Assembly: GCA_964420375.1 (NCBI GenBank)
Contig: CAYQTK010000003.1
Span: 1 to 55,691 of the forward strand
Source of the DNA: an uncultured bacterium
Lineage (GTDB): Bacteria > RBG-13-61-14 > DATKZS01
Length of the DNA stretch: 55,691 nucleotides
Reading direction: 5' to 3'
The position numbers and the translations under genes were made by a program. A model generated the notes under the pieces. That model worked only from the letters and a program-made list of their open reading frames with translations. It searched no databases and had not been told where the DNA came from. Positions 1-55,691 of the stretch are shown piece after piece. Within the stretch, counting starts at the first letter, position 1; each line of letters begins with the position of its first letter.

Positions 1-82
1 GCACAGGCAGGCGTGTCCGGCACAGGCAGGCGGAACGCACAGGCAGGCGCACTCCGAAAACGGAGGTTCGCAACGGGAACTA
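1..82 (+). mobile_element. Right end of MITE-like palindromic repeat element (copy 1, cut by window edge) carrying nested mini-palindrome right halves
   Basis: Ends ...CGCACTCCGAAAACGGAGGTTCGCAACGGGAAC-TA, nearly identical to the right end of the copy at 40366-40592. Three successive GCACAGGCAGG right halves precede it. Confidence 0.85.
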
Positions 83-6365: not shown

Positions 6366-6540
6366 TAGAGCCTCTTGCGAAACGGAGGTTTAATTTAATT
6401 TTGCGGCGCTGTTTTAAGAGTGCAGCAGCAAGCTGTCCGCTTTTTCCGCCGAGAAGCTTGCTTGTCGGAAATGCGCTCCACAAGAGGCCCGCAGTTTAGG
6501 AGGCGCCTTTTTGCAACGGAGTTTTGCAGGAGGCTCATTA
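6366..6540 (+). mobile_element. MITE-like palindromic repeat element (copy 2, internally shortened)
   Basis: TA-GAGCCTCTTGCGAAAC ... GTTTTGCAGGAGGCTC (14/16 inverted repeat). The body aligns with copies at 40366 and 55317 but lacks the 16-bp hairpin and the right REP-like unit. Confidence 0.85.
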
Positions 6541-35343: not shown

Positions 35344-35410
35344 CAGAGTCGCTTGCTGGATGGGCAGCTTGTTTGTGTTTCTTTGTTTTCGTCTCTGAGA
35401 GGTGCCTAAG

Positions 35411-36871
35411 ATGGAGCTTTACGAGCTTGGAGTTGTTCAACTTGCGGAGCGCATTCGACGGGGGGAAGCCGGATCGGTGGAGGCGGTCGAGTCGGTTCTC
35501 TCGCGGATCGATGCGGTTGATCCTAAAATCCACGCCTATCTTCACCTGAACCGGGAAGGTGCCCTGGCAGCGGCAGAGGAGGCCGACCGGGCGCGTTCAC
35601 GCGGTGAAGACAAACCTTTGCTGGGCGTTCCCCTGGGTATCAAGGACATCTTCCTCACCAAGGGGCTTCCTACCACCGCTGCTTCGCGGATACTGGAGAA
35701 CTACGTTCCCCCTTACGATTCCACTGCCGTGGCCCGCTTAAAGGACGCGGGAGCCATCGTCCTCGGCAAGTTCAACATGGACGAGTTCGCCATGGGCAGT
35801 TCGAACGAAAAGAGCGGGTTCATGCCCAGCAACAACCCGTGGAACTTGAGCCGGATACCGGGCGGCAGCTCGGGGGCCAATGCCGCGGCAATAGCTACCG
35901 ACTCCTGCCTCGGCTCGCTGGGCACTGACACCGGCGGCTCCATCCGACAGCCCGCCTCCTGCTGCGGGGTGGTGGGAATAAAGCCCACCTACGGCAGGGT
36001 GAGCCGCTACGGTGTCATCGCCTTTGCATCCAGCCTGGACCAGGTCGGAGCCATCACCAAGAACGTGGCTGACTCCGCATTGCTATTGAAGCTCATTGCC
36101 GGCCCCGACCCCATGGACTCGACCTCGGTGCCCATGGAGGTCCCCGACTATACCGAGTCTTTGAACCGCGATATCAAGGGCATGAAGGTGGGGCTGCCCA
36201 AGGAGTACTTTGCTGCCGGGCTGGACCCGGGCGTGGAGAAGGCGGTACGCGAGGCAGTGAAAAAGCTTTCGGACATGGGCGCCGAGATCGGAGAGGTCAG
36301 TCTTCCCCATGCCGAGTACTGCGTGGCCTGTTACTACATAATCGCCCCGGCAGAGGCCTCGGCCAACCTGGCCCGATATGACGGCGCCCGCTACGGCCTG
36401 CGCGTGCACGAGGGCGGCGGGCTCATGGACATGTATAAAAAGACGCGCGACCGGGGCTTCGGCCCGGAGGTCAAGCGGCGCATCCTGATCGGGACCTATA
36501 CCCTGAGCGCGGGCTACTACGACCAGTACTATCTCAAGGCCTGCCGGGTGCGGAACCTTATCAAGCAGGACTTTGACCGGGCCTTCCAGGACTACGACGT
36601 GCTGGTGGCCCCCACCATCCCCACGCCGCCCTTCAAGCAGGGCGAGAAGATGGACGACCCCCTGGCCATGTACATGCTCGACATCCTCACCCTGTCGTGC
36701 AACCTGGCAGGACTGCCCGGAATGACCGTGCCCTGCGGGTTCTCCGACGACGGACTGCCCACGGGCCTCCAAATCCTCGCCGGACACTTCAACGAACAGG
36801 CCATCTTCAGGCTCGCCCACGCCTACGAGCAGGCAACGGAATGGCATAAAAAAAGACCGGAGCTCACGTGA
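35411..36871 (+). CDS. gatA: Asp/Glu-tRNA amidotransferase subunit A
   Basis: GIKD, NMDEFAMGSS, PGGSSG, GTDTGGSIRQPA amidase signature, FGPEVKRRILIGTY; start ATG 35411 (or GTG 35402). Confidence 0.98.
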   Translation: MELYELGVVQLAERIRRGEAGSVEAVESVLSRIDAVDPKIHAYLHLNREGALAAAEEADRARSRGEDKPLLGVPLGIKDIFLTKGLPTTAASRILENYVPPYDSTAVARLKDAGAIVLGKFNMDEFAMGSSNEKSGFMPSNNPWNLSRIPGGSSGANAAAIATDSCLGSLGTDTGGSIRQPASCCGVVGIKPTYGRVSRYGVIAFASSLDQVGAITKNVADSALLLKLIAGPDPMDSTSVPMEVPDYTESLNRDIKGMKVGLPKEYFAAGLDPGVEKAVREAVKKLSDMGAEIGEVSLPHAEYCVACYYIIAPAEASANLARYDGARYGLRVHEGGGLMDMYKKTRDRGFGPEVKRRILIGTYTLSAGYYDQYYLKACRVRNLIKQDFDRAFQDYDVLVAPTIPTPPFKQGEKMDDPLAMYMLDILTLSCNLAGLPGMTVPCGFSDDGLPTGLQILAGHFNEQAIFRLAHAYEQATEWHKKRPELT

Positions 36872-36892: not shown

Positions 36893-38143
36893 ATGATCAC
36901 CAGGATTAAAATCGACGGTTATAAGTCCTTCAAGGATTTCGAGCTCCAGATGAAACCGTTGATGGTGCTTTTCGGTCCCAACACCAGCGGCAAGAGCAAC
37001 CTGCTGGATGCATTGCGACTTATCAGCCTGGTGGGATCTGAAAAGGACATGAAAGATGTTTTTAAAAAGCATCGCGGACGGGCCAAGGAGAGCTTGTGGC
37101 GAAAAGAGATGAATTTATCATCGAGCTCGTCTTACATGAGATTCGAAGCGGACGTAAACCTGAACGACGATGTCTGTAATGCAGTGGAGGACAGAATTTT
37201 CGAACTGAGGTCCGGACTTGATCATGCCAAGCAGGACGGAAAAAAGGTCATGATCAATGAGCGGAACCTGCGTTACTCTTTTGAACTTGAGGTCCAGTCT
37301 TCCGGGGCAACGCGGGTCACTGATGAGAGGCTCTGCGCTTTGACCAAGAGGTCCCCCCGCAAGGAAAGAGCCAGAAATCCTTTTATCGAGAAGGTGGAGG
37401 ACAAGATAAGGATAAGAAAGGAAAGCCAGTCTCATCCCATATTTCAAGACGTTGGTCTGGATCGTTCCGTGTTGTCTACTTCCCTTTATCCGCCTCATCA
37501 TCCTCATATGGAAACTTTAAAGGAAGAGCTCACCAGATGGAAGTTCTATTACTTCGAGCCTGGAAAGATCATGCGGGAGAAAGTCCCGGAGAGCGAGGTG
37601 GACTCCATAGGTGAGAGGGGGGAGGACCTTGCCGGGTTCTTTTACACTTTGAAAAACAGGTCGGAGAAGAATTTCCGAAGTGCCCGGCAGACGGCGAGAA
37701 AGCTTATACCCGGCATCGAGGATTTCGATGTGAAGCTTGACAAGAGAGACGCCATGGTGGAGCTGGTTATAAAGGAGAGCCGGGGTGACTTTTCCTCCGC
37801 GCTTATTTCGGAGGGAACGCTCAAGATACTGGGTATGCTTGCCATATTCCATTCCCTGACTCCTCCTGCCCTGATAGGAGACGAAGGGCCGGAGAACGGC
37901 GTCCACCCGGAGCGACTCCACCTTATAGCGGAGACCTTTAAGAACCTGGCCAGCTACCAGGGCTGCCAGGTCATCGTAAATACTCATTCGCCGGAGTTCG
38001 TCGAGCTTTTCGACGACGAAAACCTTTTTTCCTGTCGAAAGGAAGAAGGCGTTACAACCATCGAGCCTCTGGGAGAGATAAAGCCGTTGTTCCGCAAGAA
38101 CCAGATCAAAGACAGGCGCTCCGATATTCCCAGGGTGGAGTGA
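36893..38143 (+). CDS. ABC-type (AAA_21/AbiEii-like) ATPase of a two-gene defence-like module
   Basis: IKIDGYKSFKD, FGPNTSGKSNLLDAL, ISEGT signature, GDEGPENGVHP (Walker B/D-loop variant), QVIVNTHSP. Confidence 0.88.
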   Translation: MITRIKIDGYKSFKDFELQMKPLMVLFGPNTSGKSNLLDALRLISLVGSEKDMKDVFKKHRGRAKESLWRKEMNLSSSSSYMRFEADVNLNDDVCNAVEDRIFELRSGLDHAKQDGKKVMINERNLRYSFELEVQSSGATRVTDERLCALTKRSPRKERARNPFIEKVEDKIRIRKESQSHPIFQDVGLDRSVLSTSLYPPHHPHMETLKEELTRWKFYYFEPGKIMREKVPESEVDSIGERGEDLAGFFYTLKNRSEKNFRSARQTARKLIPGIEDFDVKLDKRDAMVELVIKESRGDFSSALISEGTLKILGMLAIFHSLTPPALIGDEGPENGVHPERLHLIAETFKNLASYQGCQVIVNTHSPEFVELFDDENLFSCRKEEGVTTIEPLGEIKPLFRKNQIKDRRSDIPRVE

Positions 38144-38148
38144 TACAA

Positions 38149-38886
38149 ATGGCGGACGAGATCAAGATAGGCTATTTCCTGGAAGACGTTGCCCACCGGG
38201 CCTTTATAACGGCATTTGTAAAAAGATTGTTAAAGCACAAGTACGGCGACGACCTCCAAGTGGAAGGGGATATTTTCTGCGAAAGCGGCGGGTCCAAAGA
38301 GATAAACAGCTTTAGAGCTTTTCTAAAAGAATGGAAAAAAGACAGTGATATTAGTTTGCCTTACCATTCGCTGGTTATAGGCCATGATTGCAACTGCAAG
38401 GGCAAAGAAACAATCAAAAAAAAGTTCAGCAAACCTGCCAGCAAGGCGGGCTACCCGGAGGACAGAATTATATACGCCTTGCCCGATCCTTACATAGAGC
38501 GCTGGTACCTGGCCGACCCCCGAGCGTTCTTGGAAACCATCGAAGGCAACGAGCCGCCCGGAGAGATACCTTACGTACATAAAAAGGGGAAGCAGACTTT
38601 TTACAAGGACAAGATGCAAGAGACTTTATGGAAAAACGGGATCGGGTCTTCACTGGCAGGCGCGGAGTTAGGAGACCGGATCGCGGAGCTTGTTGATATT
38701 ATACATAACGACTTAAATAAGTGCGCATGTTTAATTTCTGTGCGAGCGACTTCAGTCGCGATTAAAATCGCTCGCACATATGCATATGTTGAAATATGCG
38801 CAATTATTTGTGACGTTGTGTATAGTAAAGCAGGATATGTAGACCCCAATTTCAAAGACTTTGCCGAAGCAATAAAAAGGCTGTGA
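38149..38886 (+). CDS. DUF4276/RloB-like TOPRIM-fold protein, interrupted in frame by a 123-bp palindromic insertion
   Basis: FLED (TOPRIM Glu), [17 protein letters not shown] motifs; directly follows the ATPase; residues encoded by 38702-38824 look foreign. Confidence 0.72.
38700..38824. mobile_element. TA-flanked palindromic MITE (123 bp plus duplicated TA) with REP-like core
   Basis: Ends TATACATAACG / CGTTGTGTATA; inner arms AAATAAGTGCGCATGTTT / AAATATGCGCAATTATTT; core TGTGCGAGCGA..TCGCTCGCACA perfect 11-bp repeat; AT-rich relative to host genes. Confidence 0.85.
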
Positions 38887-38894
38887 GGGGAAGC

Positions 38895-40340
38895 ATGGAT
38901 TACGAAGCTGTGATCGGGCTGGAGGTTCACGCCCAGCTTTTTACAAGGTCGAAGATATTCTGCGGCTGTTCCACCGAGTTCGGCGCGCCGCCCAACACCC
39001 GCGTTTGCCCGGTCTGTATCGGACTTCCCGGAGTCCTGCCCGTGCCTAACCGGCAGGTGGTGGAGATGGCGCTCAAGACGGCGCTTGCTCTAAACTTCGA
39101 GATTCAAAGGCGGAGCATATGGGAGCGCAAGAACTACTTTTATCCTGATCTGCCCAAGGGCTACCAGATATCGCAGTACGCATATCCGCTGGCCAGGAAC
39201 GGCTGGATCGAGATCAAGGCAGGCGAGAAAGAAAAGCGCATCGGTATCACGCGGCTTCACATGGAGGAGGACGCCGGCAAGCTGGTGCATTCCGAAGACA
39301 CCTTTTCACGTGCCAATGCGAGCTTTGCGGACTTCAACCGGAGCGGGGTCCCCCTGATGGAGATAGTGAGCGAACCCGACATCCGGTCCGCACAAGAGGC
39401 CGGGGCGTATCTGCGGGCGCTCCGGAGCATACTGGTCTACCTGGGCGTTTGCGACGGCAACATGGAGCAGGGCTCACTCCGTTGCGACGCCAACGTGAGC
39501 GTCCGTCCGCCGGGCAGTGAAGACATGGGCACTCGTGCGGAGATAAAGAACATGAACTCCTTCCGGAACGTGGAGCGGGCCCTGGACTACGAGATAAAAA
39601 GGCAGTCCCGGCTGCTGGAATCGGGCAAGAATGTGGTGCAGGAGACGCGCCTGTGGGACGACCGGGAGGGCAAGACCGTGGCCATGCGCGGCAAGGAGGA
39701 GTCCCACGACTACCGCTATTTCCCGGACCCGGACCTCTTGCCGCTGGAAGTTGACGAACAGTGGACGAAAAGGCTGCGGGAGAGACTTCCCGAGCTTCCC
39801 ATGGAAAAAATGAAGCGTTTCGTGGCCGATTACGGCATCCCCGAGTATGACGCCTCGGTGCTGACCTCGGAGCGGTCGCTGGCGGACTACTACGAGGCCG
39901 CTCTAAAGACGGGCGCGGACGCCAAGAAGACGGCCAACTGGGTCATGTCCGAGCTTCTGCGCGAGCTCAAGGATGACGAGCGCGACATAACCGACTGTCC
40001 CGTAAGCGCGGAGCAGTTGGGCTCGCTGGTGGGTATGATAGACTCGGGCGAGATCACCGGCAAGATCGGCAAGACGGTGTTCGCCGAGATGTACAAGACG
40101 GGCAAGAGCCCGGCGGAGGTCATCGAGGAGAAGGGATTGAAGCCCATGGCGGACGAGGGAGAAATCGGGAGCATCTGTGACCGGGTGATAGCGGAGAATC
40201 CCAAGCAGGTCAAGCAGTACCGGGAGGGCAAGACCAAGGTGCTGGGATTCTTTGTAGGACAGGTCATGAAGGCCAGCGGAGGCAAGGCTGACCCTCAAAT
40301 TGTCAACCGCCTGCTCACAAAAAAGCTTGAACGGGCATAG
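38895..40340 (+). CDS. gatB: Asp/Glu-tRNA amidotransferase subunit B
   Basis: [77 protein letters not shown]. Confidence 0.98.
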
Positions 40341-40365: not shown

Positions 40366-40592
40366 TAGTGCCCGTTGCGAAACGGAGGTTTAATTTACTT
40401 TTGCGGCGCTGTTCTGGAGTGCGGCAGCAAGCTGTCCGCTTTTTCCGCCGGGAAGCTTGCTTCCCGGAAATTTGACCCACAAGAGGCTCGCAGTTTACGG
40501 GACGCATTTTCATAAGTTCCGGCAAGCCGGAACTTATGAAAGCGAAAGCAAGCTTTCGCACTCCGAAAACGGAATTTTCGCAACGGGAACTA
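40366..40592 (+). mobile_element. MITE-like palindromic repeat element (copy 3, apparently intact, no mini-palindrome insertion)
   Basis: TAGTGCCCGTTGCGAAA ... TTTCGCAACGGGAACTA (16/17 inverted repeat including TA). Internal hairpins at 40448-40467, 40508-40541 and 40542-40559. Confidence 0.9.
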
Positions 40593-55087: not shown

Positions 55088-55316
55088 TACTCCCTCCCTA
55101 AAGCTCGTTCCACTCCTTTAAAAACTGTGTAAGTATTACTCTCCCTCTCTCAAAAGGGAAAGCTCGAACACGGCAAATATACTAGAACTTGCCGGGTTTC
55201 TCAAAAATTCCCGGTTTTAAAGACAGCGTAGAAAATAGTTGTGCAAATGACAATGCTTGAAAACGCAGGGGCCGGCTCGGCAGGTTATCTGAAGATGATG
55301 TAACAGGTGAAATAAC

Positions 55317-55596
55317 TAGTGCCCGTTGCGAAACGGAGGTTTAATTTGCTTTTGCGGCGCTGTTTTGGAATGCGGCAGCAAGCTGTTCGCTTTTTCCGCC
55401 GGGATACTTGCTTGTCGGAAATGCGCTCCACAAGAGGCTCACAGTTTGCGAGGCGCCTGTTTGTAAGTTCCGGCAAGCCGGAACTTATGAAAGCGAAAGC
55501 AAGCTTTCCTGTCTGCCCTGTCTGCGTGTCCGCACAGGCAGGCGTGTCCGGCACAGGCAGGCGCACTCCGAAAACGGAGTTTCGAAACAGGCTCTA
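55317..55596 (+). mobile_element. MITE-like palindromic repeat element (copy 4) with doubly nested mini-palindrome insertion
   Basis: TA-GTGCCCGTTGCGAAAC ... GTTTCGAAACAGGCTC-TA; colinear with copy 3 apart from a 54-bp insert at 55508-55561. Confidence 0.9.
55508..55561. repeat. Nested CCTGTCTG...CAGGCAGG mini-palindromes
   Basis: CCTGTCTGC [CCTGTCTGCGTGTCCGCACAGGCAGG] CGTGTCCGGCACAGGCAGG; absent at the same site in copy 3 (TTT^CGCACTCC). Confidence 0.88.
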
Positions 55597-55691
55597 AATA
55601 TTTTTCGTGAGAGCGACTGATACCGCGTTTTTCGTGCTAGCCCGAGTTTCCTAGTTATAAAACAAACGCTCTAGTTCCCTATATATTCCAG

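What the first reader, a model, noticed from the sequence alone, without database searches (positions are those of the whole stretch)
55508..55561. Self-nesting 26-28 bp mini-palindrome inserted into the larger repeat (Russian-doll insertion)
Seen: copy 3 has the empty site GCTTT^CGCACTCC. Copy 4 has 54 extra bases at that exact point, made of an outer CCTGTCTGC...CGTGTCCGGCACAGGCAGG unit interrupted by an inner CCTGTCTGCGTGTCCGCACAGGCAGG unit (55517-55542). The outer insertion makes no target duplication, and both insertions sit immediately 5' of CG. Inference: an extremely small mobile palindrome that targets hairpin DNA, including itself. TSD-free insertion at a short motif is how HUH/Y1 single-strand transposition behaves.
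Basis: partly seen in the sequence, partly recalled or inferred. Interest (0 to 1): 0.75.

Follow-up and report, generated by a model that had tools for sequence, protein, structure and literature searches.

The report
Tiny self-nesting palindromic mobile repeat
The 54 extra bases are two members of a family of 26-36-base imperfect DNA palindromes, one sitting inside the other, and the same little palindrome turns up at unrelated places in genomes labelled as many different bacterial phyla, so it behaves like one of the smallest mobile DNA elements known.

Summary
Window 55508-55561 is a 54-nt block missing from the otherwise homologous copy at 40552-40564. It parses as a 26-nt palindrome (55517-55542) inside a 28-nt one.

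The mobile-element reading is largely supported. Match lengths peak sharply at 27 nt (53) and 30 nt (27). Flanks are mostly unrelated, and record labels span more than 20 phyla. The rejoined outer unit equals an uninterrupted unit at L064:601-628.

Units lie in R^CR context in 62 of 111 cases (background 6.4%). No target duplication was detected. Flanks fold into a hairpin in 36 of 111 cases, against 9% of controls. Several loci show nesting in either orientation.

The proposed enzyme (HUH/Y1, RAYT-like) is untested:
- No such gene was found in the window or in 165 flanking frames.
- The GTAG/CGTC foot of classical REPs is absent.

Replication slippage also remodels the arms, so not every extra arm is an insertion. 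I found no description of this family in print or in Rfam. I rate it a new variant of the small nested palindromic repeat class. Its main point of interest is the labelled cross-phylum spread.

The parts
55508..55516 (+). Left arm of the outer 28-nt unit
   Evidence: Joined to 55543-55561 it equals the uninterrupted unit at L064:601-628.
55517..55542 (+). Inner 26-nt imperfect palindrome, a complete unit
Evidence: Folds as ssDNA at -5.9 (+) and -6.5 (-) kcal/mol. Nearest uninterrupted relative is L003:601-626, 25 of 26 bases identical.
55543..55561 (+). Loop and right arm of the outer unit
   Evidence: 55532-55563 is identical to window 1-32 (D7).
40552..40564 (+). Empty site in copy 3 of the host repeat (junction between 40556 and 40557)
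   Evidence: Exact match to GCTTTCGCACTCC; alignment A1.
1..47 (+). Right-hand part of a deeper stack in copy 1. Three right arms (1-11, 20-30, 37-47); the left side lies off the window.
   Evidence: The third arm is preceded by the same loop as the 29-nt units of L029 and L059.
55317..55596 (+). Host: copy 4 of a ~227-nt MITE-like repeat (280 nt with the insert)
   Evidence: Inverted ends and flanking TA read.
40366..40592 (+). Host repeat copy 3 (empty allele)
6366..6537 (+). Host repeat copy 2. It lacks the whole internal segment that contains the insertion site.
48..82 (+). Right end of host repeat copy 1
   Evidence: (D4).

Best explanation
The 54 bases are two members of a dispersed family of very small (26-36 nt) imperfect palindromes, one inserted into the other. 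Both sit in a MITE-like host repeat.

Shown:
- The family exists at about a hundred unrelated sites, in genomes labelled as many phyla.
- Units sit without a target duplication, preferentially in the context purine^C-purine.
- A third of units lie inside a larger hairpin, including other units in either orientation.
- The two arms are not exact complements. Paired in register, the first 12 positions give a stem with T.G, C.A and T.G mismatches, so the two strands differ.

Inferred:
- The unit is, or was, mobilised in trans as folded single-stranded DNA by a nuclease-ligase that recognises the imperfect hairpin. It would join the unit next to a two-base motif (YG on the complementary strand), as Y1/HUH transposases do.
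- The nested pair was already present when the host repeat was copied, because copies 1 and 4 share it.
- Slippage between the directly repeated arms later adds or removes arms.
For: - Empty versus filled alleles of the same repeat.
- The pattern scan gave 117 loci and 123 matches: 53 of 27 nt and 27 of 30 nt, against 6 at gap 0. My own estimate of chance is about 4 per gap length for the whole 596-Gb collection, assuming equal base frequencies.
- Flanks are mostly unrelated. Only about a dozen locus pairs share flank homology.
- Long records of 120 kb to 5.9 Mb carry units under labels from six phyla: Planctomycetota, Latescibacterota, Nitrospirota, Pseudomonadota, Verrucomicrobiota and Acidobacteriota.
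- The rejoined outer unit equals L064:601-628.
- Opposite-orientation nesting occurs in L020, L049, L058, L092 and L102. Same-orientation nesting occurs in L065, L094, L095 and L113. Tandem duplication cannot produce the former.
- R^CR context in 62 of 111 units against 6.4% background; C at +1 in 90 of 111 against 25%.
- No duplication of 1-9 nt above permutation.
- Hairpin-forming flanks in 36 of 111 units against 9.2% of controls, Mann-Whitney p = 4e-5.
- No orientation bias relative to neighbouring genes: 26 sense and 28 antisense among 54 gene-unit relations. This argues for a DNA-level rather than a transcript-level entity.
- Pfam domains of flanking frames nearly all lie to one side of the unit.
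Against: - No candidate enzyme was seen: 0 HUH/Y1 hits in 44 window ORFs and in 165 flanking frames.
- REP-type tetranucleotide feet are absent.
- A single 26-36-nt hairpin has no room for the two distinct ends of IS200/IS605 elements.
- The hairpins are only moderately stable: -6 to -9 kcal/mol, and z = -1.5 for the 54-nt block.
- In this window the motif occurs only at one site of one repeat.
- Unpaired or surplus arms (window 31-47, L064:629-646, L072, L094) show that slippage or partial deletion also shapes these stacks.
- In the records of 4 Mb or more that were hit, only 1-3 loci each were returned.
- All 117 loci come from metagenome-derived assemblies, and most contigs are short, so some phylum labels may rest on binning.
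- All loci were selected with exact arms, so arm conservation is partly built into the sample.
Confidence: 0.6

Rival explanations
1. Local slippage only. The block arose in place by two tandem duplications, one of the 9-nt left arm and one of the 19-nt loop plus right arm, at an unstable spot of the host repeat. No unit moved.
For: - TRF scores exactly these two arrays, and a 17-nt array in copy 1.
- L072 has a plain right-arm duplication and L094 has surplus left arms.
- Within the window the motif is confined to this site.
Against: - It needs two separate duplications plus a 1-nt change, placed so that the result is two complete hairpins.
- The two units differ by a complementary C...G pair, as two natural subtypes do. 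The outer one equals L064:601-628 exactly.
- It explains neither how the first unit reached the empty site nor opposite-orientation nesting elsewhere.
Confidence: 0.12
2. A minimal MITE. The unit is just the two terminal inverted repeats of a DDE-type insertion sequence, fused and moved by that element's transposase.
For: - The outer 9-13 nt are conserved while the centre varies in length and sequence.
- The arms are imperfect complements, as IS ends often are (sequence reading).
- Three units have 8-9 of 9 matching flanking bases: L006, L015 and L073.
Against: - No duplication of any length from 1 to 9 nt is enriched over permutation in 111 units.
- The window's empty and filled alleles show none.
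- No full-length partner was seen. The one nearby transposase (ISL3-type, L009:897-1229) was not shown to be linked to the unit.
Confidence: 0.1
3. A functional hairpin (protein-binding site or RNA stem-loop) kept by selection and spread by gene transfer, rather than a selfish mobile element.
For: - In the homologous pair L013/L077 the flanks are 80.6% identical over 191 nt, but the 30-nt units differ at one base.
- The conserved mismatches are wobble-type (sequence reading).
- Few loci per long record.
Against: - No orientation preference relative to neighbouring genes: 26 against 28.
- Equal numbers upstream (26) and downstream (28) of genes.
- Self-nesting in both orientations.
- No Rfam family at gathering or relaxed thresholds.
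Confidence: 0.1
4. An assembly or library artefact.
For: - All loci are from metagenome-derived assemblies.
- Copy 4 lies 130 nt from the window end, and copy 1 is cut by the window start.
Against: - The same unit occurs in records whose contig names follow many different naming styles, including records of several Mb labelled 'chromosome: 1'. From this I infer different assemblers and read types.
- Loops vary, flanks are unique and two homologous loci share a unit.
- The arms are far shorter than the k-mer sizes shown in several contig names (k87 to k191).
Confidence: 0.03

Closest known systems
Small dispersed repeats (SDR4-6) of heterocyst-forming cyanobacteria (Elhai et al. 2008, Genome Res 18:1484). 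The reference was seen only in the reference lists. The paper is not held, so its content here is recalled.
   Same: As I recall it: 21-27-nt repeats with features of mobile elements, found inside one another and inside other repeats, with no encoded protein.
   Different: Different sequence and different hosts. The family here carries the same arms under labels from more than 20 phyla, whereas the SDRs were described within one group of cyanobacteria. I could not compare sequences or insertion rules.
REP / BIME / REPIN elements with their RAYT (TnpA-REP, Y1 HUH) genes. Passages read in PMC6006769 and PMC3733652.
   Same: Imperfect 20-40-nt extragenic palindromes, sometimes lying inside other palindromes (PMC3733652). 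The proposed mobilisation is as ssDNA hairpins.
   Different: The GTAG/GTGG or CGTC foot is absent. No RAYT was seen. The PMC6006769 passage says its 66 REP families are found mostly in Proteobacteria; that REP families are lineage-specific is my own recollection. This one is labelled across phyla. Self-nesting of single units is not a described REP feature in the passages I read.
Class 3 TnpA-Y1 genes flanked by atypical hairpins (Quentin et al. 2018, PMC6006769, section 27 read).
   Same: Non-canonical hairpins, at high copy in some genomes. Found in Planctomycetes, Acidobacteria and Proteobacteria, which are among the labels here.
   Different: Those hairpins have a CnGA foot. Here CnGA lies within 8 nt upstream in only 6 of 111 units. 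No link was tested.
IS200/IS605 single-strand transposition (recalled textbook knowledge; background passage).
   Same: Insertion without duplication next to a short motif, and reliance on imperfect hairpins that distinguish the two strands.
   Different: Those elements have two different ends and a 4-5-nt target. Here there is one hairpin and at most a 2-3-nt context.

Membership tests
REP / REPtron (RAYT-associated) | Dispersed extragenic imperfect palindrome of 20-40 nt | tested here: met
   Pfam domains of flanking frames lie beside the unit, not across it, in nearly all annotated loci.
REP / REPtron (RAYT-associated) | Conserved GTAG/GTGG (or CGTC) tetranucleotide at the foot of the hairpin | tested here: not met
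   GTAG/GTGG in 4 of 111 units and CGTC in 2 of 111 within 8 nt upstream. Background is 3.5% and 2.5%.
REP / REPtron (RAYT-associated) | A Y1 HUH (RAYT) gene in the same genome, flanked by the repeats | not testable with these tools
   None in 44 window ORFs or 165 flanking frames.
REP / REPtron (RAYT-associated) | Tens to hundreds of copies per genome | tested here: inconclusive
   Only 1-3 loci in each record of 4 Mb or more that was hit.
IS200/IS605-derived elements | No target duplication | tested here: met
IS200/IS605-derived elements | Two distinct subterminal hairpins and insertion 3' of a fixed 4-5-nt target | tested here: not met
   There is a single hairpin. Only R^CR is enriched (62 of 111), and the commonest 4-mers at -4..-1 reach 6 of 111.
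MITE of a DDE transposon | Terminal inverted repeats plus a flanking target duplication of fixed length | tested here: not met
   Inverted ends are present, but no duplication of 1-9 nt exceeds permutation.
Cyanobacterial SDR families | Sequence identity to SDR4-6 consensus | not tested
   The paper is not held, and no SDR sequence was available from any tool.
Integron attC site | R box GTTRRRY at the 3' end | tested here: not met
   0 of 111.
CRISPR array | Regularly spaced direct repeats | tested here: not met
   Of the 80 loci whose match positions one search lists, 78 have a single match; only L005 and L055 have a second, 236-239 nt away. One search shows a further separate second unit in L088, on the opposite strand.
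Any Rfam family | Covariance-model match at the gathering score | tested here: not met
   0 hits in the window. Only sub-threshold hairpin look-alikes in 19 loci and in window 55200-55691.

The most novel reading that the evidence does not exclude
A 26-36-nt imperfect hairpin is an active, horizontally spreading mobile element shared by many bacterial phyla of anoxic and subsurface habitats. It inserts without duplication at R^CR sites, and into itself, through a single-strand nuclease-ligase that has not yet been identified. This would make it the smallest and most widely shared transposable unit described in bacteria.
Probability: 0.3. Interest if true: 0.85.

Novelty: new variant of a known kind. 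Interest (0 to 1): 0.65.

Why it matters
Very small palindromic repeats are usually treated as lineage-specific genome furniture. Here one unit with the same arms is labelled across many phyla, shows a clear insertion context and a self-nesting habit, and encodes no enzyme.

That makes a concrete question testable: which trans-acting protein moves hairpins this small? A phylogenetic profile of the motif against nuclease genes would address it.

The family is also a practical marker for annotation, because these units break contigs and can be read as tandem repeats. It may further serve as a marker of gene flow among uncultured lineages.

Tried and rejected
- Rfam at gathering score on the whole window and at relaxed E-values on 19 loci and on window 55200-55691: nothing beyond sub-threshold hairpin look-alikes.
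- BLAST of a 40-nt unit with flanks (L013:596-635) against plasmids and phages: one 26-nt hit at E = 0.1 in a Burkholderia replicon, taken as chance; no phage hit.
- Host repeat copy 3 against plasmids: no match.
- Host repeat against the 117 loci: only the mini-palindrome part matches, so the source genome was not among the loci.
- A naive test for units inside open frames of 300 nt or more was uninformative: 63 of 123 against 58% of controls.
- Target-duplication search at all boundary offsets: negative.
- Orientation relative to neighbouring genes: none. For this I transcribed the 54 Pfam-positive frames. I left out three frames that run right across the unit (L007, L026, L033) and loci with only 19- or 22-nt matches.
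- Fuzzy search for diverged copies in loci and window: 27 raw hits against 0 in a shuffle, but most are re-readings of nested units. About five are genuine extra copies, so conservation could not be tested without selection bias.
- Literature: seven text searches and an eighth on Geobacter multicopy sequences found no description of this motif. Searching the arm sequences as text returned only unrelated primer matches.
- Elhai 2008 is not held.
- The supplements of PMC2996986 that list Geobacter palindromic multicopy families are PDFs (names seen). I did not try to open them, and they may hold a related family.
- Protein Atlas on the BamA-like ORF gave only a weak lead on the source phylum, with Thermodesulfobacteriota commonest.
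Read-level polymorphism, copy number per genome, phage carriage and co-occurrence with any nuclease therefore stayed unchecked.

Full report
**What is at the site**

The window holds four copies, all on the + strand, of a MITE-like repeat of about 227 nt. They lie at 1-82 (cut by the window start), 6366-6537, 40366-40592 and 55317-55596. The ends are inverted repeats and the full copies are flanked by TA (read).

Copy 3 has GCTTT followed directly by CGCACTCC (40552-40564). Copy 4 has 54 extra bases exactly there, at 55508-55561. The block reads as:
- a 9-nt left arm;
- 19 nt that complete an outer 28-nt unit.

Both junctions precede CG. No duplication flanks either insert, apart from a 1-nt ambiguity because a C lies on each side. 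Copy 1 shows three right arms at 1-47, and its first 32 bases are identical to 55532-55563.

**Is the nested reading right?**

Tandem Repeats Finder describes the same bases as a 9-nt x2 array next to a 19-nt x2.2 array. The parse therefore needs outside support, and three things supply it.
- The outer unit, once the inner one is taken out, is letter for letter the uninterrupted 28-nt unit at L064:601-628 in an unrelated genome. The inner unit differs at one base from L003:601-626.
- The two units differ by one extra C after the left arm and one extra G before the right arm. This is a complementary pair, as expected of two hairpin subtypes and not of a duplication with a random indel (sequence reading).
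- Other genomes hold units inside units in the opposite orientation (L020, L049, L058, L092, L102) as well as the same orientation (L065, L094, L095, L113). Tandem duplication cannot give the opposite orientation.

Slippage is nevertheless real in this family. L072 has a plain right-arm duplication, and L094 has surplus left arms. L064:629-646 and window 31-47 are right halves without a visible partner.

**The family**

The 123 matches are not spread evenly over gap lengths. Counts are 53 of 27 nt, 27 of 30 nt, 9 of 28 nt, 5 of 29 nt and 6 at gap zero. My own estimate of chance is about 4 per gap length for the whole 596-Gb collection at equal base frequencies. The 19-22-nt matches are therefore probably chance, and the 24-36-nt class (111 matches in 108 loci) is not.

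By my count of accession prefixes, the loci come from about 98 assemblies, 91 of them with 24-36-nt units. All are metagenome-derived. The labels span more than 20 phyla. Many contigs are short, so some labels depend on binning. Records of 120 kb to 5.9 Mb, however, carry units under labels from Planctomycetota, Latescibacterota, Nitrospirota, Pseudomonadota, Verrucomicrobiota and Acidobacteriota.

An all-against-all comparison shows flank homology for only about a dozen pairs. Some are copies of a larger repeat in one genome (L010/L036, L034/L100, L061/L082). L018, L039 and L106 share flanks across two Brocadiaceae assemblies. One pair is a homologous locus in two Mariprofundaceae (L013/L077).

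**Anatomy**

Paired in register, the outer 12 positions of the two arms form a stem with three mismatches, all of the transition type (T.G, C.A, T.G) (sequence reading). The palindrome is therefore imperfect in a fixed way and the two strands are distinguishable. The centre varies from 3 to about 12 nt and usually extends the stem.

As single-stranded DNA the units fold at -6 to -9 kcal/mol. The 54-nt block folds at -13.1 kcal/mol with z = -1.55, so these are modest hairpins.

Because the scan demanded exact arms, arm conservation across genomes is partly built in. A fuzzy search found only about five extra diverged copies. Those I read (L031, L097, L108 and the L095 variant) keep the T and G of the first mismatch.

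**Where units sit**

- The base after the unit is C in 90 of 111 cases (background 25%). It is followed by G (40) or A (34).
- The base before the unit is G (59) or A (31).
- The full context R^CR holds for 62 of 111 units against 6.4% background.

In the window's empty allele, and in rejoined host units, these bases belong to the target and not to the insert. No direct repeat of 1-9 nt at any boundary offset exceeds permutation. Only L006 (9 of 9), L015 and L073 (8 of 9) stand out.

The 18 nt on either side fold into a hairpin of -12 kcal/mol or better for 36 of 111 units, against 9.2% of 2,670 control positions. These hosts include other palindrome families, for example in L005, L045, L055, L066 and L101.

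Among the 165 largest open frames in the flanks, Pfam finds ordinary, unrelated genes. Their domains lie beside the unit, apart from possible in-frame cases in L007 and L033. Units are as often upstream (26) as downstream (28) of the neighbouring gene, and as often sense (26) as antisense (28).

**Mechanism**

What is shown fits a DNA-level element that arrives at new sites without duplicating them, prefers a very short context and hairpin DNA, and can land in its own kind.

Which enzyme does this is inference. A single-strand, hairpin-recognising Y1/HUH nuclease-ligase is the best analogy. I recall such enzymes as giving duplication-free insertion next to a short motif and as using imperfect hairpins to tell the strands apart. 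Read on the complementary strand, the unit lies 3' of YG.

Against membership in the REP/RAYT group:
- the GTAG/GTGG, CGTC and CnGA feet are at background level (definitions from passages);
- no Y1 gene lies in the window or near any unit;
- one small hairpin cannot carry the two distinct ends of IS200/IS605.

A DDE-type minimal MITE is disfavoured by the missing duplication. A transcript-level function is disfavoured by the lack of orientation bias. An artefact is disfavoured because the unit recurs across many differently named assemblies, including Mb-scale records.

The shared 32 nt of copies 1 and 4 imply that the nested pair was already in the host repeat when that repeat was copied.

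**Comparison and novelty**

I found no Rfam family and no paper describing this motif.

The nearest described phenomena are two:
- The 21-27-nt nested small dispersed repeats of cyanobacteria (Elhai 2008). The reference was seen, the paper is not held, and its content is recalled.
- REP/BIME elements, including atypical hairpins next to class 3 TnpA-Y1 genes (PMC6006769, section 27).

The new points here are the self-nesting single unit, the R^CR context and, above all, the same arms under labels from many phyla. I file it as a new variant of a known kind.

**Open points**

- Copy number per genome.
- Presence in cultured isolates. Plasmid and phage collections were negative.
- Read-level polymorphism.
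- The enzyme.

Noticed in passing
window 1-82, 6366-6537, 40366-40592, 55317-55596: A MITE-like repeat of about 227 nt in four copies, all on the + strand and all intergenic. It has ~17-nt inverted ends and flanking TA. The two end types (GTGCCCG... and GAGCCTC...) are mixed in copy 4. No match in plasmids, in the 117 loci or in Rfam.
   Followed up: partly
window 40507-40560 and 55458-55507 versus 6514-6518: Copy 2 of the host repeat lacks a ~54-nt internal segment present in copies 3 and 4. That segment holds a perfect palindrome with 16-nt arms (40508-40541, I6) and is where the mini-palindromes landed. It may itself be an older inserted palindrome.
   Followed up: partly
window 1 and 55691: The window starts inside the palindrome stack of copy 1 and ends 95 nt after copy 4. 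If the window is a whole contig, both ends fall at this repeat, as at assembly breaks.
   Followed up: no
window 36893-38886: An AAA_21 (AbiEii-like) ATPase ORF and a following ORF with no Pfam hit lie between a GatA-type amidase (35402-36871) and GatB (38883-40340). This looks like a small defence- or TA-like insert within the gatAB gene pair.
   Followed up: no
L006:592-639, L015, L073: Three units are flanked by near-perfect 8-9-nt direct repeats (9 of 9 in L006), unlike the other 108. Either these units landed in a short tandem motif, or a second insertion route exists.
   Followed up: partly
L005:590-640 and 826-876, L010, L045; L024, L055, L066, L101: Other small palindrome families act as hosts. 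One is a GTCATTCC...GGAATCC type, in Thermodesulfobacteriota and Pseudomonadota MAGs. The other is a longer CCTGCCTGCAGCG-type palindrome in Latescibacterota.
   Followed up: no
L020:144-203 and L058:584-643: A whole two-level nest (a unit inside an opposite-strand unit) is 98% identical over 60 nt in two different MAGs. This suggests that nests, once formed, are copied as one piece, as in window copies 1 and 4.
   Followed up: no
L064:530-575 (-): A sub-threshold match to the Rfam family Acido-Lenti-1 (26.4 bits, gathering score 37, E = 0.023), 25 nt from the unit.
   Followed up: no
L009:897-1229: The N-terminus of an ISL3-family transposase lies about 270 nt downstream of the unit in the Candidatus Brocadia pituitae genome. 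It is the only transposase seen near any unit.
   Followed up: no
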